Of a stretch of DNA of 36,830 bases, positions 2,407 through 35,803 are shown piece by piece (the stretch's first letter is position 1; each line of letters begins with the position of its first letter). The DNA is from Candidatus Saccharimonadales bacterium. GTDB taxonomy: Bacteria > Patescibacteriota > Saccharimonadia > Saccharimonadales > JBBQYC01. The position numbers and the translations under genes are program-made. A model generated the notes under the pieces. The model did no database searches. It saw only the letters and a program-made list of their open reading frames with translations, and was not told where the DNA came from. The stretch covers positions 1 to 36,830 of the forward strand of contig JBBQYC010000003.1 in assembly GCA_038209015.1 (NCBI GenBank), read 5' to 3'.

Positions 2407-2948
2407 TGGATCGATCACGACGACCGGGGCCAAAGATGCCTCAAGAAGAAAAACAGTTCGAAGAACGCGTTATCAATATTGACCGTGTGGCTCGTGTTGT
2501 ACAAGGTGGACGCCGTTTTAGATTCCGAGCACTCGTAGTTTTAGGCGATGGCAAAGGAAAAGTCGGCATGGGTATTGCTAAAGGTGCAGATGTAACGACA
2601 GCAGTAACAAAAGCCGTTGACGTCGCTAAGAAGAATATTCTTGATGTGACAATCGTAAACGATACAATCCCGCATGATGCCCAGGCTAAAGTTGGTGGTG
2701 CTAACATTCTTATAAAGCCAGCGGCACCAGGTACCGGTTTGATCGCGGGCGGTGTAGTCCGTACCGTTCTAGAAGTAGCCGGAGTACACAATGTTTTGTC
2801 CAAATCTATTGGTTCTAACAATAAGATAAATCAAACCTACGCTACCATTGAAGCTTTACAGCAGCTTGTACATCCAGATAAGTGGCACACCGCTTTCTTA
2901 CAAAAAACCAAGGATAAAAAAACAGCTCCAAAGGCGGAGGCTAAGTAA
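2406..2948 (+). CDS. rpsE: 30S ribosomal protein S5
   Basis: [34 protein letters not shown]. Confidence 0.98.
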
Positions 2949-3418
2949 TGAAATTCAACGAACTTACAATAAAATCTCATAAACCTCGTCGGCGCGCTGG
3001 ACGTGGAATATCCGCTGGACTAGGTAAGACTGCTGGACGGGGTACAAAAGGCCAAAAAGCACGTACAGGTAACGGACGACGACCTGGGTTTGAAGGTGGT
3101 CAAAACCCGCTCATGAAGCGTTTGCCTAAACTACGTGGCTTTACCAGCAAAAGGACTCCAAAAGAAGTAATATACACGGGACAGCTGGCCGCAATTGGTG
3201 CAACCATTGATAACTTTGCACTCTACAATGCTGGACTTGTTAGTTCACCGTATGCAAGTGTAAAACTTATAAGCAAAGGTGAAATAACAAAAAAACATTC
3301 AGTATCACTGCAAGCTGCCAGCGCTAATGCAATTGCGTTATTGCAAGCTAAAGACGGGACATTCAAAGCCATAGACCGCTTGAAGCAGTCTCCAAAAACC
3401 ACTGACAAAAAAGACTAA
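2948..3418 (+). CDS. rplO: 50S ribosomal protein L15
   Basis: [37 protein letters not shown]; directly follows rpsE with no rpmD. Confidence 0.98.
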
Positions 3419-3429
3419 ACTGTTATACT
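3402..3429 (+). promoter_or_regulatory. Putative internal sigma70 promoter for secY
   Basis: CTGACA-16 nt-TATACT with TGn extended -10. Confidence 0.45.
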
Positions 3430-3539
3430 AGATACCAATAGATCAAAAGAGGGTGTAATGATTTTTCTTGAAAAGAAGTGCATGACGAGTAATACAATGC
3501 AACAAAATGCTCAGATAAACTTAGGAAAGGTATAAGCAT

Positions 3540-5036
3540 ATGAGCTGGAAAGTTATTTGGCAATCCCTAAAAAGTCCTGATATGCGAAAACGACTTCTTG
3601 CCGTACTCGGTATGTTACTCGTGTTTCGTGTGCTTGCTCATATTCCTATACCTTTGAGTGATCCCGAAACTCTACAGCAAGTACTCCGGAACTTATTCAC
3701 AACATCGCAAAACTCTCAATTACTTAGTTTCATTGATGTTCTTTCAGGTGGTGCCTTAGCGAATTTTTCAATTATGCTCGTAGGTCTTGGGCCATATATT
3801 AATGCTTCTATTATTATGCAATTGATGACCAAAGCTCTACCGAAGTTGGAAGAACTTCAAAAAGAAGGCGAATATGGTCGCAAAAAAATAAATCAATACA
3901 CTCGTATACTCGCGTTTCCGCTTGCTATCATTCAGTCGGTGGGAGCGATTTACTTAGTGAGACAAACCGCACAGCAAATAGGTGGTATTGGCGATATAAC
4001 AGCCAATGCTTCGATGGGTCAATGGGTGCTTATGGTAGCCGCGCTAACAGGTGGTGCAATGCTTCTGATGTGGCTTGGAGAATTAATTACTGAACAGAGT
4101 GTAGGGAATGGTATCTCTCTGCTTATAACAATCGGTATTGTCAGTACGCTGCCTTCAACAGTCGGATCAATTTTAACCTCAATAGTTGACGACAGTGCAA
4201 AGTTTAATATTCTTGGTTTCGAACTGCCTATCAACACTGAATCATTAACATATGGAGCGATCATAGCCGCTATTACCATTATAGTTACAATCCTTGTGGT
4301 TAAGCTTAATGAAGCGTCGCGAAATTTAACCATCAATTATGCCAAACGCGTACAGGGCAATAGGGCATATGGAGGGGTAACAACCAAATTACCGGTCAAA
4401 CTCATAACTGCCGGAGTTATACCAATTATCTTCGCTGTCGCCTTCTTGAGTGTACCTAGCTTTGCTGGGCAGATAATGACTGGGTCTTCCAATGCACAAT
4501 GGCAAGAGTTGGGTGCAAAGCTTGTCATATGGTTCCAGCCACCAACAAGTGAGGCGCTGCAATCTGATTTGAATGCATTTATATATCCGGCAGCATATTT
4601 CTTCCTAGTGTTTGTATTTACTTTTTTCTATACGGGTATAACCTTCAACTCAAAGGAGATTGCAGAAAACTTACAGAAACAAGGAGGCTTCTTGTCTGAT
4701 ATTCGCAGCGGACAGCAAACCGAGAAGTATTTAGGCAAGGTTGTGAACCGATTGACACTATTCGGGGCTATCAGCTTAGGCTTGCTCGCGGTATTTCCAA
4801 TCATTGCCCAGTACTTTTTAAATACGAATTTAGCCATCGGTGGTACTAGTATTTTGATTTTGGTTGCCGTAGCGCTAGAGACTCTCCGTTCTATTGAGTC
4901 ACGAGCATTAATGGTCACATACGACCAGTATGAACAGCCAGATTTCTTCTATGATAGTTCCGAGCCAGCACAAGCTGCTACCGGCGGTAGAAAACTAAGA
5001 TTTAGACTTCCAGGACGACGCAATAAAAAATCCTAA
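3540..5036 (+). CDS. secY: Preprotein translocase subunit SecY
   Basis: GLGPYINASIIMQL, WLGELITE..VGNGISLLI, AGVIPIIFA, IGGTSILILV; multiple hydrophobic TM segments. Confidence 0.98.
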   Translation: MSWKVIWQSLKSPDMRKRLLAVLGMLLVFRVLAHIPIPLSDPETLQQVLRNLFTTSQNSQLLSFIDVLSGGALANFSIMLVGLGPYINASIIMQLMTKALPKLEELQKEGEYGRKKINQYTRILAFPLAIIQSVGAIYLVRQTAQQIGGIGDITANASMGQWVLMVAALTGGAMLLMWLGELITEQSVGNGISLLITIGIVSTLPSTVGSILTSIVDDSAKFNILGFELPINTESLTYGAIIAAITIIVTILVVKLNEASRNLTINYAKRVQGNRAYGGVTTKLPVKLITAGVIPIIFAVAFLSVPSFAGQIMTGSSNAQWQELGAKLVIWFQPPTSEALQSDLNAFIYPAAYFFLVFVFTFFYTGITFNSKEIAENLQKQGGFLSDIRSGQQTEKYLGKVVNRLTLFGAISLGLLAVFPIIAQYFLNTNLAIGGTSILILVAVALETLRSIESRALMVTYDQYEQPDFFYDSSEPAQAATGGRKLRFRLPGRRNKKS

Positions 5037-5092
5037 AAAAAGTCTTTGTCTTTTAGTATCTGTCTGGTATAATCAACCTCTGTTATATTTGT

Positions 5093-5308
5093 ATGGCAAA
5101 TAAGGAAGTTATCGAACTGCAAGGAACAGTTGTTGAGGCATTGCCTGGAACACAGTTCAAGGTCGAGCTTGAAAATGGCCATCAAATTATAGCTCACGTC
5201 GCAGGGAAAATGAGGAAGCATTATATCCGACTTGTACCTGGAGACGGCGTTACGGTTGAGTTGACCCCTTACGATCTTACGAAGGGCAGAATCACGTACC
5301 GCAAGTAA
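5093..5308 (+). CDS. infA: Translation initiation factor IF-1
   Basis: [40 protein letters not shown]; upstream TATAAT at about 5068. Confidence 0.98.
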
Positions 5309-5358
5309 TACTATATAAGGCAGTGTGTCGCCCCTAAACACATAAGGAGACGATCCGC

Positions 5359-5475
5359 ATGAAAGTGCGTGCAAGTGTAAAAAAGATGAGCCCCGACGAC
5401 AAAATTGTTCGTCGTAAAGGCCGTGTTTACGTTATAAACAAATTCAAACCTAAGCATAAGCAGAGGCAAGGTTAA
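5359..5475 (+). CDS. rpmJ: 50S ribosomal protein L36 (cysteine-free)
   Basis: Not in ORF track; translated by hand as [38 protein letters not shown]; SD AAGGAG upstream; stop overlaps rpsM start. Confidence 0.97.
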
Positions 5476-5861
5476 TGGCGCGTATATCAGGTGTTACTAT
5501 CCCAAGTGAAAAGCAAGTTCACGTTGCATTGACGTATGTCTATGGCATAGGACCAAAATCAAGCAATGATATTTTATCGATCGCTGAGGTGGATGGTACA
5601 ACTCGCGTTAAGGACTTAACAGAGTCTGAAATTTCAAAAATTCAAGACACCATTAATGATAAGTTTCTTGTTGAAGGTGAATTACAAAGAGTCGTTTCAG
5701 GTAACATCAAACGTCTTCGTGATATTAAGTCTTACCGAGGCGAACGACATGCAAAGAGACTTCCAAGCCGAGGCCAGCGTACACGTACAAATGGTCGAAC
5801 TCGACGCGGTAAACGTGTGGCAGTTGGCGGCGCGCAACCTAAATCAGCAACAAAGACGTAG
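5475..5861 (+). CDS. rpsM: 30S ribosomal protein S13
   Basis: MARISGV, LTYVYGIG, YRG.RH..LPSRGQRTRTN. Confidence 0.98.
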   Translation: MARISGVTIPSEKQVHVALTYVYGIGPKSSNDILSIAEVDGTTRVKDLTESEISKIQDTINDKFLVEGELQRVVSGNIKRLRDIKSYRGERHAKRLPSRGQRTRTNGRTRRGKRVAVGGAQPKSATKT

Positions 5862-5871
5862 GAATTGATAT

Positions 5872-6294
5872 ATGAGTACTAAAGATACAACTACCCCTGC
5901 TGAAGTTAAAAAATCAGCACCAAAGCGTAAAAAGAGCAAGCGCCAAGTTCCGACTGGACATATGCACGTATACGCTAGTTTTAATAACACGATAATTACA
6001 TTTACCGATCCTAAGGGCGGCGCATTAACTGCATCAAGTGCCGGCGCATGTGGATTCCGGGGAAGTAAAAAAGGCACAGCGTACGCAGCTCAAGTTGCAG
6101 TAGAAAAAGCTGGCACAGCTGCAAAACAATCGTATGGACTTAATAAAGTTGACGTATTTGTTAAAGGAATCGGACTTGGACGTGATGCAGCCATTCGTAC
6201 ACTTCAAAATCTGGATATTTTCGTAAGTAGTTTGACAGACGTAACAGGCGTTCCACACGGTGGCGTGCGTCCTAAGAAAGCTAGAAGGGTCTAA
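5872..6294 (+). CDS. rpsK: 30S ribosomal protein S11
   Basis: ASFNNTIITFTD, GFRGSKKGTAYAAQ, DVTGVPHGG. Confidence 0.98.
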   Translation: MSTKDTTTPAEVKKSAPKRKKSKRQVPTGHMHVYASFNNTIITFTDPKGGALTASSAGACGFRGSKKGTAYAAQVAVEKAGTAAKQSYGLNKVDVFVKGIGLGRDAAIRTLQNLDIFVSSLTDVTGVPHGGVRPKKARRV

Positions 6295-14065: not shown

Positions 14066-14377
14066 ATGAAAAATAGCGATTTTAGAGAAAATCAATCAGA
14101 AATTTCCGTAGGTTCATATGCTGAGCGTGCCAGGATTCCTGTTTGCGGTGATCATGTGATTGTTGTTGAAGTCAATGAAGAAGATGATCGAATTCTTGAG
14201 TCAACAGTGTTGTGGGACTATTTACCTGTTGGAACTAGGGGGCTTGTTAGGGCGATAAGTAGTTACCATGGGCTTGATGTGGCATGGGTTGATGCTCTTG
14301 AAATAGAAGAGGATAGACGATATCCAAAATCTAGTCCGTTTACTTTTCGAGAAATAGGACCTTTTGATACTTACTAA
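14066..14377 (+). CDS. Hypothetical protein (103 aa)
   Basis: ATG-started ORF filling the gap on the same strand as its neighbours; no recognisable motif. Confidence 0.55.
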   Translation: MKNSDFRENQSEISVGSYAERARIPVCGDHVIVVEVNEEDDRILESTVLWDYLPVGTRGLVRAISSYHGLDVAWVDALEIEEDRRYPKSSPFTFREIGPFDTY

Positions 14378-14536
14378 AGACAGTTCTTCAAAATTTGTAG
14401 ACAATAATACACCAATGTATACCCCTACTGTAATCAAGAGTTTTTGTTCATTATGTTTTTTGGTCAGTACTCGAAACATAGTTTCATAAACTGTTAACTA
14501 ATTTGAATTTATCTGTTATGTTTATATGGTATTTAT

Positions 14537-14781
14537 GCCATCTAAGCTCAGGGGTAGAGCAGTGACTATGGCGAAAAATGCCCTGATAGCTCAGTGGTAG
14601 AGCGCATCCATGGTAAGGATGAGGTCGTGGGTTCAATCCCCACTCAGGGCTCCAGATGAAATACGGGTCACGTGTGAGAACTGCCGGTGGCAGTTCGCAC
14701 GGAAATCTTCACTTGAAAACTGGTTTTCAAAGATAAAGTTTCGGGGTCGCCGGAGATGTCCAGATCCCGAAGATGGCTCCA
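14537..14781 (+). ncRNA. Expanded tRNA-like RNA enclosing tRNA-Thr(GGU)
   Basis: GCCATCT/AGATGGC+TCCA acceptor; GCTC-AGGGGTA-GAGC D-arm; GTGAC/GTCAC anticodon-position stem; TCGGGGTC/GATCCCGA T-position stem; candidate promoter TTGAAT-16-TATGGT just upstream. Confidence 0.75.
14580..14654 (+). tRNA. tRNA-Thr(GGU)
   Basis: GCCCTGA/TCAGGGC acceptor, CATCC-AT GGT AA-GGATG anticodon arm, GTTCAATCC T-loop, CCA. Confidence 0.97.
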
Positions 14782-14822
14782 GTGTTTACATATATTAGTT
14801 AATCTGTTAATATCTACCAGTT

Positions 14823-15026
14823 ATGGCAAAAAAAGGCGACAAACGAAAGACAATTGGACTCGTAAGCGAAGGCAGCGGCGGGCGTCATTATTATACCCGA
14901 AAGAATACTATGAATACTCCTGATAAGCTTGAGCTGAAGAAGTATGACCCGGTACTAAGAAAACATGTTTTGTATGTTGAAACCAAAAAATCTCTTGGAC
15001 GCAACGAAGTTAAACCTAAAAAATAG
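14823..15026 (+). CDS. rpmG: 50S ribosomal protein L33 (cysteine-free)
   Basis: [30 protein letters not shown]. Confidence 0.96.
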
Positions 15027-15046
15027 TCTAAAATCTAAGCTCTATA

Positions 15047-16009
15047 TCAGTTTGGCTGGAAGCTAATACTTCTAAGAATAATATCTGCGAGTGGATCTAA
15101 GGCTACTTTGGACTCTTCCAACATAGATATATAAATAAATAATGATTCACCATTGTTTTTAGGTATGATCACTGCTCGAATATTCAAAATCTGACCACTT
15201 TCATTAATTGTTTCCACTCTCGCAAATATACCTCTTTTATGTTTAGTTCCCGGCACACTTATGTCACCGGTAACAGTAACGGTTTTTTCTGAACCAGTAG
15301 CTACTTGAAGTGCCTTATCATAGCTAGATAATCCGTTATTTAATACTGTCGAAGTGGTCTCAGTATTTTTATATACTAGTTCTTTGGCTTTGGGCAATCT
15401 AATTACCCTTACGTCATAATAATCTGTCGTATCATTCTTGCTTTTAAATATATCAACTTGCAGGCCATTTAGCTGTTCAGACTTCATTAGTTCAAAATCG
15501 GCAGGTAGTTTAATTGAGTATTCATGTTGTGAATTTACGAATTTTTTCAGATCTTTGTCGGTATATTCAGTTTGTGCCTGTTGAAAATTAAATATCTCTG
15601 GATTTTTAAAATATAGTGAACCTAGTACAACAAGGACAGATAGAATTACAGACAAAAAACCTAGTATTAACATTTTCCAAGCACCAAATTTGAGCATATG
15701 TCCACTCTCTTTGTATGCACGTATTGTTCGTTCACTTTTGGCGACAAAAGCGGCAATCACGCCTGCCGGAATAAAAGGAAATATTTGAATATTGCTATTT
15801 GATAAGTTTTCAGGCATCAAAATTACTATCGCTATAAAATACAAAACTACGACTGAATAGCCGACCAGTCTGATTTTGCGCGCCTGTAATCTGTGCCCAA
15901 ATAGTTCAGTGTTCCTAGCAAATAAATACACACCCAAAAGCGGACCAAAAACCACCGACGCCACCGATATCTCAGCCGTTGTAAAAATTTGTGGTTTTGA
16001 TTTTAGCAT
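15047..16009 (-). CDS. Membrane protein with about 4 N-terminal TM segments and a possible PsbP/DcrB-like soluble domain
   Basis: Hydrophobic N-terminal half; YSIKLPADF and C-terminal IILRSISF are reminiscent of the PsbP-like fold (weak). Confidence 0.65.
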   Translation of the reverse strand: MLKSKPQIFTTAEISVASVVFGPLLGVYLFARNTELFGHRLQARKIRLVGYSVVVLYFIAIVILMPENLSNSNIQIFPFIPAGVIAAFVAKSERTIRAYKESGHMLKFGAWKMLILGFLSVILSVLVVLGSLYFKNPEIFNFQQAQTEYTDKDLKKFVNSQHEYSIKLPADFELMKSEQLNGLQVDIFKSKNDTTDYYDVRVIRLPKAKELVYKNTETTSTVLNNGLSSYDKALQVATGSEKTVTVTGDISVPGTKHKRGIFARVETINESGQILNIRAVIIPKNNGESLFIYISMLEESKVALDPLADIILRSISFQPN

Positions 16010-35534: not shown

Positions 35535-35676
35535 TTGCATTAACAGATATAAAATGCTATATTCAATCAGTTACCAAAGACAGTAGCCGCAGTAATGCTT
35601 AATCCGCTACCGAGGTGCCAATCAATTTTTTGTTTTGAGCACATAACTGACCTCTTGGTAACCCAAGGGGTCTTTT
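35535..35676 (+). promoter_or_regulatory. rplJL promoter and L10 leader with terminator
   Basis: TTGCAT-17-TATATT; CCAAAGACAGTAG...TTAAT..CTACCGAGG matches the L10-leader pattern; terminator GACCTCTTGG-TAAC-CCAAGGGGTCTTTT. Confidence 0.85.
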
Positions 35677-35803
35677 GGTATATAACACAGTTCGTCCGGT
35701 CGATAACGAACTACATTAACAAATTTCATGCATCAATATTCACTACTTTCGCGTTGATAGTAATTGGAAATTGATACTTGAGTAATCCTCCCGAGGAGGG
35801 TAG

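What the first reader, a model, noticed from the sequence alone, without database searches (positions are those of the whole stretch)
14537..14781. A tRNA inside a tRNA: tRNA-Thr(GGU) nested in the anticodon loop of a 245-nt tRNA-shaped RNA
Seen in sequence: the flanks of tRNA-Thr(GGU) (14580-14654) form a second cloverleaf with correct tRNA spacing. The 7-bp acceptor GCCATCT (14537-43) pairs with AGATGGC (14771-77) and is followed by T-CCA. There is a canonical D-arm GCTC-AGGGGTA-GAGC (14546-60), a single A26, and a perfect anticodon-position stem GTGAC (14562-66)/GTCAC (14667-71) whose 100-nt loop holds the whole inner tRNA. The variable region is expanded into two hairpins (GAACTGCC/GGCAGTTC and TTGAAAAC/GTTTTCAA). 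A T-position stem TCGGGGTC (14741-48)/GATCCCGA (14763-70) abuts the acceptor but lacks a normal TTC loop. The outer ends (GCC...GGCTCCA) match both true Thr tRNAs here, yet the stem interiors differ from them while staying fully paired, which argues for selection rather than decay. A TTGAAT-16-TATGGT promoter would start transcription near G14537. An alternative local pairing GCCAT/ATGGC (14568-72) could form co-transcriptionally. Inference: RNase P and 3' processing of the inner tRNA would leave a two-piece, anticodon-less tRNA mimic with a CCA end. It could be a decoy for tRNA-targeting toxins, a non-ribosomal aminoacyl carrier, or a maturation switch. I know of no described bacterial element with this layout.
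Basis: partly seen in the sequence, partly recalled or inferred. Interest (0 to 1): 0.92.

Follow-up and report, generated by a model that had tools for sequence, protein, structure and literature searches.

The report
Repeat-invaded tRNA remnant around tRNA-Thr
The "tRNA inside a tRNA" is real sequence, but it is best read as the leftover shell of an older threonine tRNA gene whose T-loop carries a previously undescribed, roughly 87-base structured repeat that sits beside tRNA genes in many Saccharibacteria genomes.

Summary

The "outer tRNA" is a composite of three things:
- two remnants of a second tRNA-Thr(GGU) gene: positions 1-35 at 14537-14571, and the T-loop 3' part through CCA at 14762-14781;
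- the working tRNA-Thr(GGU) at 14580-14654;

M is found in 57 of 100 genomes of the same order, with up to 17 copies each. It was not found in 144 genomes of other orders and matches no Rfam family. Its structure covaries strongly. It almost always replaces U54-C56 of a truncated tRNA copy beside the intact tRNA.

The nested layout occurs in only 2 of 400 genomes. The outer anticodon stem is not conserved. The outer ends are unusually conserved.

Best reading: a tRNA-loop-targeting insertion element, tolerated only in redundant tRNA copies. Its mobilising enzyme, and whether it is expressed, remain unknown.

The parts
14503..14530 (+). Candidate promoter of the ancestral tRNA-Thr gene (TTGAAT, 16 nt, TATGGT; an alternative is TG-extended TATGTT at about 14515-14523).
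   Evidence: Read directly. It is below the threshold of the consensus scan. A similarly placed TTGATA...ATCTGTTA motif stands in G046. This is inference only.
14537..14571 (+). Outer 5' piece: positions 1-35 of a second tRNA-Thr(GGU) gene. It holds the acceptor 5' strand, the D-arm, the anticodon-stem 5' strand and U33-G34-G35 (..T ATGG).
   Evidence: The first 26 nt are 23 of 26 identical in G046. It is not called as a tRNA by ARAGORN or Rfam.
14572..14579 (+). Spacer (CGAAAAAT) between the outer 5' piece and the inner tRNA.
   Evidence: Not conserved in G046: outer-5'-rest plus spacer is 8 of 18 identical.
14580..14654 (+). Working tRNA-Thr(GGU), the only GGU isoacceptor found in the assembly.
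   Evidence: ARAGORN and Rfam RF00005 at 69.7 bits.
14655..14674 (+). Spacer plus a remnant of the outer anticodon-stem 3' strand (GTCAC 14667-71) and of the variable/T-stem region (GTG).
   Evidence: G046 has GGTCTCGGG here, which is the variable loop plus T-stem 5' strand of an intact tRNA-Thr(GGU) allele seen in metagenome loci. GTCAC is not conserved.
14675..14761 (+). Element M, a ~87-nt three-hairpin dispersed repeat standing in place of U54-C56 of the outer T-loop. P1 is 14678-14696 and P2 about 14703-14741. The P3 region, 14744-14761, is degenerate in this copy and pairs instead with the outer T-stem remnant.
   Evidence: Covariance model R1 scores 94.8 bits. There are 10 copies in G000. 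Covariation is shown. No Rfam family matches.
14762..14781 (+). Outer 3' piece: T-loop 3' part, T-stem 3' strand (CCCGA), acceptor 3' strand (AGATGGC), discriminator T and CCA of the second tRNA-Thr(GGU) gene.
   Evidence: It is 19 of 20 identical in G046. The 18-mer ends 26 intact tRNA-Thr(GGU) and 9 intact tRNA-Thr(CGU) genes among 80 metagenome loci.
14785..14813 (+). rpmG promoter-like site (TTTACA, 17 nt, TG-TAATAT).
   Evidence: The ATCTGTTA-type motif recurs before rpmG at 'empty' sites in relatives.
14823..15026 (+). rpmG (ribosomal protein L33) open reading frame, the downstream neighbour. It is not part of the element.
   Evidence: Calling it L33 rests on my reading of the translation and on recall, not on a family search.

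Best explanation
The 245-nt "outer tRNA" is the shell of an older tRNA-Thr(GGU) gene. Its T-loop (U54-C56) is occupied by one copy of M, and its anticodon loop is interrupted by the tRNA-Thr(GGU) gene that does the work today.

M is a ~87-nt, three-hairpin element confined to the Saccharimonadales among the genomes searched.

Mechanism I commit to, inferred and not shown:
- M is a non-autonomous insertion element. Its fold, read on the tRNA-sense strand as RNA or as single-stranded DNA, is needed for its spread.
- It inserts after a G-run, at GG^(T/G)TC, at the apex of tRNA-gene hairpins. The T-loop is the main target. The variable, anticodon and D-loops, and M's own ..UUUCGGG site, are rarer targets.
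- A hit in a single-copy tRNA gene is lethal. Only copies lying in redundant, partial tRNA duplicates become fixed.
- These duplicates often have a direct-inverted-direct, palindromic architecture. That suggests template switching at the T-arm and terminator hairpins.

In the window, the ancestral promoter would transcribe outer 5' piece, inner tRNA, M and outer 3' piece as one unit, since no terminator is seen. Ordinary tRNA processing would release tRNA-Thr and leave M-containing fragments.

The confidence given covers the whole statement. The composite nature of the locus and its membership of the M family I hold at about 0.9. The mobile, selfish mechanism I hold at about 0.55.
For: SHOWN - a dispersed family.
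- The window's 14674-14760 matches 7 other places in G000. The covariance model R1 finds 10 copies.
- 57 of 100 genomes of the order have M, 373 matches in all, up to 17 per genome.
- 0 of 144 genomes from other orders of the phylum have it.
Of the 80 loci listed, all carry Saccharibacteria-type labels except 6 with vaguer labels.
- There were 0 matches in IMG/VR viral contigs.

SHOWN - structure.
- 98.1% of 2064 cells are paired and 28 of 34 pairs show compensatory change; 0 of 500 shuffles reach this.
- Frequent G.U pairs (48 of 61 at one pair, 20 of 61 at another) place the fold on the tRNA-sense strand.

SHOWN - context.
- Of 153 copies, 64 lie 17-85 nt downstream of a same-strand tRNA (mostly 62-85 nt), 35 lie 16-75 nt upstream (mostly 41-52 nt), 23 are at locus edges and 31 have no same-strand tRNA within 150 nt. 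Only 1 has an opposite-strand tRNA close by.
- 45 of 59 downstream-type copies are followed by an exact duplicate of at least 12 nt of the neighbour tRNA's 3' part.
- 24 of 34 upstream-type copies are preceded by an exact duplicate of at least 15 nt of its 5' part.
- Reverse-complement T-arm pieces lie in the spacer in 24 of 59 and 18 of 34. By shuffling, 17 of each have p <= 0.01.
- The flank logo is that of a T-arm.

POINTING TO MOBILITY.
- M sits inside M at the same internal site in 3 loci: G000:C32, L148 and L123.
- Copies in D-loops, in a variable loop and in anticodon loops keep the same M boundaries.
- Two copies at different tRNA loci of G046 are 99% identical, and copies in G011 and G005 are 98% identical.
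- Copy number differs within genera: 2 against 14, and 4 against 0.

THE WINDOW'S SHELL.
- The outer ends are those of a natural tRNA-Thr(GGU) allele.
- G046 shows that allele with M exactly in place of TTC.
Against: - No mobilising enzyme was identified.
  - G000 (91% complete) has no match to Y1 transposase, reverse transcriptase, the TnpB-type domain, RtcB or EndA.
  - Large serine recombinases do not track M: present in 41 of 57 genomes with M and 32 of 43 without.
  - Reverse transcriptase: 14 of 57 with M and 5 of 43 without.
  - Y1-like ORFs are only weakly enriched, 25 of 57 against 7 of 43. Related genomes are not independent, and M-rich genomes such as G066 (complete, 15 copies) have none.
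- No fresh empty-versus-filled pair was caught. The one same-genus comparison was too diverged, with flanks 68-71% identical, and there the tRNA was inverted.
- Nearest-neighbour analysis of 63 copies groups them neither by genome nor by tRNA. Some tRNAs always show the same geometry: His 7 downstream and 0 upstream, Met 6 and 0, Pro(GGG) 1 downstream and 6 upstream. That fits old, vertically kept insertions.
- Long retention with an intact fold in ~0.8-Mb genomes argues for a function, as does the high conservation of the outer ends between G000 and G046.
- The regular spacings suggest that the duplication is coupled to insertion in a way I cannot explain.
- Expression is untested.
Confidence: 0.57

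Rival explanations
1. M is a host-useful structured non-coding RNA, for example a protein-binding or catalytic RNA. It rides on tRNA transcripts and uses tRNA-derived helices (acceptor or T-stem remnants, a CCA end) as a scaffold for processing and stability. On this reading the window's outer acceptor helix with its CCA end is kept because it caps a two-piece M RNA.
For: - The fold is maintained at 98.1% of pairs, with sense-strand G.U pairs.
- M differs between the orthologous G000 and G046 loci by paired changes in P2, while the spacers are scrambled.
- The outer 5' piece (23 of 26) and outer 3' piece (19 of 20) are more conserved than the working tRNA (59 of 75).
- The same geometry recurs for a given tRNA across families.
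- M is retained at up to 17 loci in ~0.8-Mb genomes.
- The window has no terminator between the tRNA and M.
Against: - 43 of 100 genomes of the order lack M, and copy number swings within genera.
- M-in-M insertions and insertions in different tRNA loops look selfish.
- Most downstream-type copies lie behind a terminator-like hairpin.
- Flanking helices are not uniform. Upstream-type copies lack the acceptor 3' strand, and the inverted piece is often partly deleted.
- No RNA data exist.
Confidence: 0.25
2. The partial tRNA copies are attachment-site scars of integrative elements that target tRNA T-loops and anticodon loops. M is the element-side arm of such a site, or the remnant end of the element, recognised by a tyrosine or large serine recombinase.
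For: - The breakpoints lie in the T-loop and anticodon loop, and a displaced fragment is identical to the end of the regenerated tRNA (45 of 59). That is the pattern described for islands in tRNA genes in the abstract of PMC4383910, seen only in a search listing.
- Recombinase genes abut M plus a 3' piece in G005. Coordinates put others about 0.9 kb from M in G041, G010, G046 and G024.
- A 3.5-kb island lies between two M copies at tRNA-Lys in G018.
- M-less partial 3' duplicates exist in L008 and L257.
Against: - The typical unit between the tRNA and the M-bearing fragment is only 62-85 or 41-52 nt and holds no gene.
- Large serine recombinases do not co-vary with M: 41 of 57 against 32 of 43. 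M-rich genomes such as G056, with 17 copies, have none.
- The tRNA-specific parts match the local tRNA, so no single universal attP exists.
- M was not found in viral contigs.
- The model does not explain M-in-M insertions.
Confidence: 0.1
3. One reading: the 245-nt nested structure is a selected, tRNA-shaped RNA. After release of the inner tRNA it would be a two-piece, anticodon-less tRNA mimic with a CCA end, acting as a toxin decoy, an aminoacyl carrier or a maturation switch.
For: - The nested cloverleaf is the minimum-energy fold.
- The outer acceptor strands and D-arm are highly conserved between G000 and G046.
- An analogous nesting occurs at tRNA-Glu(CUC) in G084, with 6 of 7 outer acceptor pairs.
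- No Rfam family matches.
Against: - The layout occurs in 2 of 400 genomes, and 0 of 80 metagenome loci carrying the outer 3' 18-mer have it.
- The outer anticodon stem is absent in G046, where pair 1:72 is A.C.
- There is no compensatory change in any outer stem.
- Three of its five 'arms' belong to a repeat found at many other tRNAs with only half a tRNA attached.
- The T-loop elbow, U54-C56, is destroyed.
Confidence: 0.05
4. M is a T-loop intron that is removed from tRNA precursors at the RNA level.
For: - M stands precisely inside tRNA loops, in the sense orientation.
- One complete tRNA-Lys(UUU) gene with M in its T-loop exists in G018.
- Similar introns shared among different tRNAs are described for archaea in the abstract of PMC4090602, seen only in a search listing.
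Against: - After removing M in silico, a complete tRNA appears in 1 locus (G018, which also has an intact copy beside it) and in 0 convincing cases of 153.
- No EndA or RtcB match was found in G000.
- There is no group I intron match, and 87 nt is too small for one.
Confidence: 0.03

Closest known systems
Displaced tRNA-gene fragments at integration sites of genomic islands and prophages (tyrosine or serine integrases acting in the T-loop or anticodon loop)
   Same: A partial copy of the tRNA's 3' or 5' part lies beside an intact gene. Breakpoints are in the T-loop or anticodon loop. The fragment is often identical to the working gene (abstract of PMC4383910, seen in the listing).
   Different: No island or integrase lies between the copies in the typical locus, where spacing is 41-85 nt. 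A constant 87-nt structured module sits at the breakpoint. Inverted T-arm pieces are present. There is no co-variation with serine recombinases.
Small non-autonomous bacterial repeats: MITEs, REP/BIME elements, IS200/IS605-derived palindromic elements and Rickettsia palindromic elements (all recalled)
   Same: Short, non-coding, multi-copy and hairpin-rich, with patchy distribution, nested copies and strand-specific structure.
   Different: There are no terminal inverted repeats and no target duplication. There is extreme specificity for tRNA-gene loops, in the tRNA-sense orientation. No transposase was identified, and Y1-like ORFs are only weakly enriched.
Non-canonical archaeal tRNA introns (including T-loop positions) and bacterial group I introns in anticodon loops
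   Same: An intervening sequence sits inside tRNA loops, and related copies occur in many different tRNAs (abstract of PMC4090602, seen in the listing).
   Different: The host copies are truncated and cannot yield a tRNA. The splicing endonuclease and RtcB ligase were not found. There is no group I core.
Split, permuted or nested tRNA genes (Nanoarchaeum split tRNAs, permuted algal tRNAs; recalled)
   Same: The 5' and 3' parts of one tRNA are separated on the DNA yet still complementary.
   Different: Here a complete working tRNA of the same anticodon lies between the parts. The separated gene has lost its anticodon loop and its T-loop, so no functional tRNA can be rebuilt.
Template-switch rearrangements at quasi-palindromes and tandem inversion duplications (the latter recalled; PMC7202029 seen as an abstract start)
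   Same: A direct-inverted-direct order of the tRNA 3' part, with junctions at the terminator hairpin and at the T-arm.
   Different: The link to insertion of a specific element, and the regularity across dozens of loci, are not part of the known phenomenon. The mechanism here is inferred from sequence only.
tRNA-like RNAs: the tmRNA tRNA-like domain, viral tRNA-like structures and bacterial Y-RNA-like YrlA (recalled)
   Same: An acceptor helix with a CCA end and a large insertion elsewhere in the molecule.
   Different: There is no match to these Rfam families even at E <= 10. There is no G3:U70 pair and no intact T-loop. ARAGORN reports no tmRNA.

Membership tests
tRNA (Rfam RF00005 / ARAGORN cloverleaf), asked of the outer 245-nt RNA | Recognised by the tRNA covariance model or by ARAGORN | tested here: not met
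   Only 14580-14654 is called. Nothing spans 14537-14781, even at E <= 10.
tRNA (Rfam RF00005 / ARAGORN cloverleaf), asked of the outer 245-nt RNA | 7-bp acceptor stem, discriminator base and CCA end | tested here: met
   GCCATCT/AGATGGC, then T, then CCA. In G046, 6 of 7 pairs hold and 1:72 is A.C.
tRNA (Rfam RF00005 / ARAGORN cloverleaf), asked of the outer 245-nt RNA | 7-nt anticodon loop and a T-loop with U54-U55-C56 | tested here: not met
   The anticodon loop holds 100 nt, including the inner tRNA. U54-C56 are replaced by element M.
tRNA (Rfam RF00005 / ARAGORN cloverleaf), asked of the outer 245-nt RNA | Stems conserved with compensatory changes in relatives | tested here: not met
   The layout is in 2 of 400 genomes. 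With 2 sequences there is no compensatory change, and the anticodon stem is lost in G046.
Any described RNA family (Rfam 15), asked of element M | Match to a curated covariance model | tested here: not met
   There is no match at the gathering score in the window. No relevant match appears at E <= 10 over 14500-14830, nor at E <= 0.01 in 4 further M-bearing loci.
tRNA intron (archaeal endonuclease type or group I) | Removing the insert restores a complete tRNA | tested here: not met
   This holds for 1 locus (G018 tRNA-Lys, 7 deletion variants) of 62. It holds for 0 convincing cases of 153, with 3 single-variant calls.
tRNA intron (archaeal endonuclease type or group I) | Splicing machinery present (EndA and RtcB) or a self-splicing core | tested here: not met
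   PF01974 and PF01139 have no match in G000, which is 91% complete. No group I match was found.
IS200/IS605-type single-strand elements and their miniature derivatives | Strand-specific hairpins and insertion 3' of a short fixed target without duplication | tested here: met
   Sense-strand G.U pairs are frequent. M follows R-G-G: position m3 is G in 135 of 136 copies. No target duplication is seen.
IS200/IS605-type single-strand elements and their miniature derivatives | A Y1 (HUH) transposase in the same genomes | tested here: inconclusive
   None is found in G000. PF01797 matches occur in 25 of 57 genomes with M and 7 of 43 without. Most are partial matches in 200-280-aa ORFs, and none was seen next to M.
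MITE (cut-and-paste transposon derivative) | Terminal inverted repeats and target-site duplication | tested here: not met
   The ends (TGAG.. and ..GTGAC) are not inverted repeats in the alignment. The flank logo shows the two halves of a T-arm, not a duplication.
Integrative-element attachment scar in a tRNA gene | A displaced fragment identical to the end of the regenerated tRNA | tested here: met
   45 of 59 downstream-type and 24 of 34 upstream-type loci show this. It is not met in the window, where the outer pieces differ from the inner tRNA.
Integrative-element attachment scar in a tRNA gene | An integrase-bearing element between the repeats, or an integrase that co-varies with them | tested here: not met
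   The spacing is 41-85 nt in most loci. The large serine recombinase profile is flat, 41 of 57 against 32 of 43. Tyrosine recombinases were looked at only in G000.

The most novel reading that the evidence does not exclude
M is a new class of RNA-structured element that specifically invades the loops of tRNA genes. It might be a small ribozyme-like or single-strand DNA element with no known enzyme partner. Its invasions would force tRNA genes to be duplicated, inverted and replaced, making it a driver of tRNA-gene turnover in Saccharibacteria. The shells it leaves could be kept as tRNA-capped, CCA-ended carriers of a functional M RNA. The window's nested tRNA-Thr, with its unusually conserved acceptor helix, would be one of them.
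Probability: 0.25. Interest if true: 0.85.

Novelty: new variant of a known kind. Interest (0 to 1): 0.66.

Why it matters
The window's nested tRNA is not a designed tRNA mimic. Following it up exposed a large structured repeat family that I could not find in Rfam or in five full-text searches.

- The family occurs in more than half of the Saccharimonadales genomes searched. In some genomes it accompanies about a third of the tRNA genes.
- It breaks assemblies at tRNA loci, and it leaves pseudo-tRNA fragments that can mislead tRNA annotation and integration-site prediction.
- If M is mobile, it is a rare bacterial case of an element specialised for tRNA loops. It would then offer a natural experiment in how ultrasmall genomes with single-copy tRNAs survive hits to essential genes.
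- If M is a host RNA, it is a new non-coding RNA of a major uncultured lineage that includes human oral symbionts.

Either way, the covariance model and the three locus geometries make the question directly testable.

Tried and rejected
- RNA evidence: no RNA holder was listed for 14300-15100, so expression is untested. The DNA contigs laid cover the locus only in pieces, and none spans it.
- More examples of the nested layout:
  - A DNA search of 400 genomes of the order gave only G000 and G046.
  - The outer 3' 18-mer in metagenome contigs gave 0 M-preceded cases among 80 loci examined of 87 reported.
- M as an intron: rejected.
- Enzyme partners: reverse transcriptase, TnpB-type domain, Y1 transposase and large serine recombinase were searched in G000 and/or as profiles over 100 relatives. 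None explains M, and only Y1-like ORFs show a weak enrichment.
- Phage carriage: 0 matches of the M pattern in viral contigs. This was an exact degenerate pattern, so diverged copies would be missed.
- Fresh insertion footprint: comparing G094 (14 copies) with its genus-mate G035 (2 copies) failed. The flanks are only 68-71% identical, the tRNA-Leu(UAG) gene is inverted between them, and two other loci had no alignable flanks.
- Grouping of M copies by tRNA or by genome: nearest-neighbour identities were uninformative. Of 27 usable pairs, 3 were from the same genome and 0 from the same tRNA.
- Folding G046's 250 nt kept the outer acceptor helix but misfolded the inner tRNA, so it adds little.
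- A first ARAGORN run on single-line FASTA silently missed tRNAs. It was repeated with wrapped lines.
- Literature: searches returned nothing on such an element. I saw only listings and abstract starts, and supplements are closed. I cannot say that it is unpublished.
Full report
**1.

ARAGORN and Rfam call only the inner tRNA-Thr(GGU) at 14580-14654. A permissive Rfam search of 14500-14830 (E <= 10) adds nothing relevant.

The minimum-energy fold of the 245 nt is the nested cloverleaf: -91.6 kcal/mol, z = -3.2, with 0 of 200 shuffles folding as well.

Exact contigs from other public runs cover 14440-14590, 14646-14796, 14724-15100 and 14766-14962. None spans the whole locus. An independent genome, G046, has the same arrangement upstream of rpmG.

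**2. Part of the "outer tRNA" is a dispersed repeat.**

A DNA search of 60 relatives showed that query positions about 138-222 (window 14674-14758) match many places, several per genome. BLAST against the window's own genome found 7 further copies.

I call this ~87-nt unit M. It starts with TGAG and contains three hairpins:
- P3 is a 7-bp stem with a GAA loop.

In the window's copy P3 is degenerate.

So three of the five arms of the proposed cloverleaf belong to M.

**3. M is a real, structured, lineage-restricted family.**

Nine copies already show 18 of 34 pairs with compensatory change.

On 63 copies found with covariance model R1:
- 98.1% of 2064 cells are paired.
- 28 of 34 pairs carry changes on both sides.
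- 0 of 500 shuffles, and no slid register, come near this.
- G.U pairs are common, for example 48 of 61 at one P3 pair. Other non-standard pairs are rare.

The fold is therefore read on the tRNA-sense strand, as RNA or as single-stranded DNA.

Distribution:
- R1 finds M in 57 of 100 genomes of the order, 373 matches in all, with up to 17 per genome.
- It finds M in 0 of 144 genomes from other orders of the phylum.
Of the 80 loci listed, all but 6 are labelled Saccharibacteria, Saccharimonadales, Saccharimonadia or Saccharimonas. The 6 carry vaguer labels.
- Nothing was found in viral contigs.
- No Rfam family matches M.
- Tallies over relatives include one genome flagged unpublished (G032). 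No specific claim rests on it.

**4. M lives in the loops of broken tRNA copies beside intact tRNA genes.**

I examined 153 copies: 90 and 63. A few places may be held twice.

| Position of M | Copies |
|---|---|
| 17-85 nt downstream of a same-strand tRNA (mostly 62-85) | 64 |
| 16-75 nt upstream of a same-strand tRNA (mostly 41-52) | 35 |
| Too near a locus edge to tell | 23 |
| No same-strand tRNA within 150 nt | 31 |

Only 1 copy has an opposite-strand tRNA close by.

The flank logo is a T-arm. The variable loop and the G-rich T-stem 5' strand come before M. The T-loop 3' part and the T-stem 3' strand come after it. M therefore stands in place of U54-C56.

Rarer positions, with the same M boundaries, are:
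- the anticodon loop of tRNA-Pro(GGG) copies;
- D-loops;
- a variable loop;
- M itself, after ..TTTCGGG, in three loci.

Three locus geometries recur.
- **A:** [promoter][tRNA 1-53][M][T-loop 3' part and T-stem 3' strand][short inverted T-loop piece][intact tRNA].
- **B:** [intact tRNA][trailer and terminator hairpin][inverted copy of the tRNA 3' part, often partly deleted][variable loop and T-stem 5' strand][M][T-loop 3' part through CCA].
- **C:** the intact tRNA lies inside the M-bearing copy. This is the window, G046, and tRNA-Glu(CUC) in G084.

Counts on distinct loci:
- B, n = 59: 45 have an exact duplicate of at least 12 nt of the neighbour's 3' part after M. 24 have an exact reverse-complement match of at least 8 nt in the spacer, and 17 of these have p <= 0.01 by shuffling.
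- A, n = 34: 24 have an exact 5' duplicate of at least 15 nt. 18 have a reverse-complement match of at least 7 nt, and 17 of these have p <= 0.01.

Only one complete tRNA gene carrying M was seen, tRNA-Lys(UUU) in G018, and an intact copy lies nearby. In-silico removal of M gave no convincing complete tRNA in the 153 copies.

**5. Re-reading the window.**

- The outer 5' piece (14537-14571) runs through the acceptor strand, the D-arm, the anticodon-stem 5' strand and T-ATGG. That is U33-G34-G35 of a GGU anticodon loop.
- The outer 3' piece (14762-14781) is the T-loop 3' part, the T-stem 3' strand, the acceptor 3' strand, T and CCA.
- The exact 18-mer of that end closes 26 intact tRNA-Thr(GGU) and 9 intact tRNA-Thr(CGU) genes among 80 metagenome loci.
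- In G046, the sequence just before M (GGTCTCGGG) and just after it (AAATCCCGAAGATGGCTCCA) is that same natural allele, with M in place of TTC.

The shell is therefore an older tRNA-Thr(GGU) gene. It was hit by M in the T-loop and interrupted in the anticodon loop by the present tRNA-Thr(GGU) plus 8 nt and 12 nt of spacer.

"Empty" tRNA-Thr(GGU)-rpmG loci exist in relatives, for example L006, L011, L019, L021, L025, L027 and L028.

No terminator-like site lies between the upstream promoter region and rpmG. Shell, inner tRNA and M are therefore probably one transcript. This is inferred.

**6.

Against:
- The layout is in 2 of 400 genomes of the order.
- The outer anticodon stem (GTGAC/GTCAC) has no counterpart in G046, where pair 1:72 is A.C.
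- No outer stem shows a compensatory change.
- At other loci M carries only half a tRNA.

For:

| Segment, G000 against G046 | Identity |
|---|---|
| Outer 5' piece | 23 of 26 |
| Outer 3' piece | 19 of 20 |
| Inner tRNA | 59 of 75 |
| M | 72 of 87 |
| Spacers | 44-61% |
| rpmG, first 150 nt | 67% |

With two sequences this cannot separate selection from gene conversion or transfer. It is nonetheless the one observation that the pure-decay reading does not explain, and I keep it open.

G084's tRNA-Glu nesting has 6 of 7 outer acceptor pairs and a 15-bp leader-trailer helix around the inner tRNA.

**7. Mechanism.**

Signs of mobility:
- constant boundaries in different loops and in different tRNAs;
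- M inside M at one fixed internal site in three loci;
- 99% identical copies at two tRNA loci of G046, and 98% identity between copies in G011 and G005;
- copy numbers of 2 against 14, and 4 against 0, within genera.

Signs of age or function:
- the same geometry for a given tRNA across families: His 7 B and 0 A, Met 6 B and 0 A, Pro(GGG) 6 A and 1 B;
- a star-like similarity pattern among copies;
- a well-kept fold.

The direct-inverted-direct order in B resembles template-switch products at quasi-palindromes. Tandem inversion duplication is recalled. PMC7202029 was seen only as an abstract start.

I infer that M-bearing copies survive only where a redundant partial tRNA copy exists or is made in the same event.

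No enzyme was found:
- G000 lacks matches to Y1 transposase, reverse transcriptase, the TnpB-type domain, RtcB and EndA.
- G000 has one large serine recombinase and two tyrosine recombinases.

| Family, over 100 relatives | Genomes with M (n = 57) | Genomes without M (n = 43) |
|---|---|---|
| Large serine recombinase | 41 | 32 |
| Reverse transcriptase | 14 | 5 |
| Y1-like ORFs | 25 | 7 |

The Y1 enrichment is weak and not phylogenetically corrected. M-rich genomes without any Y1 match exist.

**8. Comparison with known systems.**

The locus works like a displaced-fragment scar of a tRNA-targeting element. M looks like a small non-autonomous structured repeat. It fails the tested defining features of a tRNA, of a tRNA intron, of a MITE and of an island attachment scar. 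The IS200/IS605-type test is inconclusive. It matches no Rfam family.

Five full-text searches found no description of such an element. I saw only listings and abstract starts, and supplements are closed.

**9. Verdict.**

The interpretation as a purpose-built nested tRNA mimic is mostly not supported.

What is really there is an instance of a newly recognised, order-wide, tRNA-loop-associated structured element and the tRNA-gene wreckage around it. Composite nature and family membership are shown. Mobility, the duplication mechanism and transcription are inferred. Function and enzyme are unknown.

Noticed in passing
G000:C14:3600-7800 and G000:C33:1-2000; G000:C19 and C20: The assembly holds two diverged copies of the tRNA-Gly(UCC)-Arg(UCU)-His cluster, each His with its own M copy. 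It also holds two contigs with tRNA-Arg(CCU) next to a tyrosine recombinase. This may be strain mixture in the bin (contamination 2.28%) or real paralogy.
   Followed up: no
L068 (G018:C2:67500-76500) 2458-6290: An intact tRNA-Lys(UUU) with a B-type M copy is followed by a 3.5-kb stretch encoding a response regulator, a two-part histidine kinase and a GNAT acetyltransferase. After that comes a complete tRNA-Lys(UUU) gene with M in its T-loop. The two M regions are identical over 103 nt.
   Followed up: partly
L069 (G005:C16:1500-11000): A direct repeat with a 4101-nt period, at least 2656 nt of it identical, ends exactly at the CCA of an M-bearing tRNA-Pro 3' fragment. A 641-aa large serine recombinase gene abuts that fragment. 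By coordinates, recombinase genes lie about 0.9 kb from M also in G041:C9, G010:C1, G046:C3 and G024:C13.
   Followed up: partly
L025 (G035:C1) upstream of tRNA-Thr(GGU); G000:C32 pseudo-tRNA-Leu; L023 pseudo-tRNA-Pro: Other small insertions sit in the D-loops of partial tRNA copies. They are a 43-nt insert followed by an inverted D-arm (L025), a 20-nt palindrome (G000:C32) and a ~31-nt insert (L023). M is therefore not the only thing that accumulates in these pseudo-tRNAs.
   Followed up: no
L008 (G015:C2) and L257 (metagenome contig): These loci hold partial 3' duplicates of tRNA-Thr(GGU) downstream of the intact gene, without M. The duplicate starts at about position 41 and lies 95 nt downstream in L008. 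It starts at the T-stem and lies 52 nt downstream in L257. They may be M-less precursors or integration scars.
   Followed up: no
L287 (G094:C10) against G035:C1:60750-61290: The tRNA-Leu(UAG) gene is 100% identical over 86 nt but inverted relative to its conserved flanks in two genomes of one genus. Only the G094 copy has M.
   Followed up: partly
L095 about 5810-6080, L146 (minus strand) about 4735-5000, L130 about 4150-4420: A recurring non-tRNA context for M has the form ..GAGGCG..GCCGAGCTTTAG.GGGG.., a hairpin..GGAGGG [M] AGCCCCTC... It has no Rfam match at E <= 0.01. It may be another structured RNA or a gene end that M has invaded.
   Followed up: partly
32 of 100 relatives, e.g. G012 (6 matches), G026 (9), G044 (9): Many ORFs of 200-280 aa match only positions ~38-120 of the Y1 transposase model. 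They stand beside a few classical ~146-aa IS200-type genes, such as 5 identical ones in G044. I guess they may be REP-associated-transposase-like.
   Followed up: no
window 35556-35687 (+): Ribosomal protein L10 leader (RF00557, 64.4 bits).
   Followed up: no
L095 5587-5735 (-): lysM-TM7 RNA motif (RF03005, 88.1 bits), a few hundred bases from an M copy.
   Followed up: no
G000 whole assembly: ARAGORN finds 36 tRNA genes and no tmRNA. Several isoacceptors are missing from the 53-contig assembly, for example Phe, Ile and Asn. M copies often lie at contig ends in relatives, which suggests the repeat breaks assemblies at tRNA loci.
   Followed up: no
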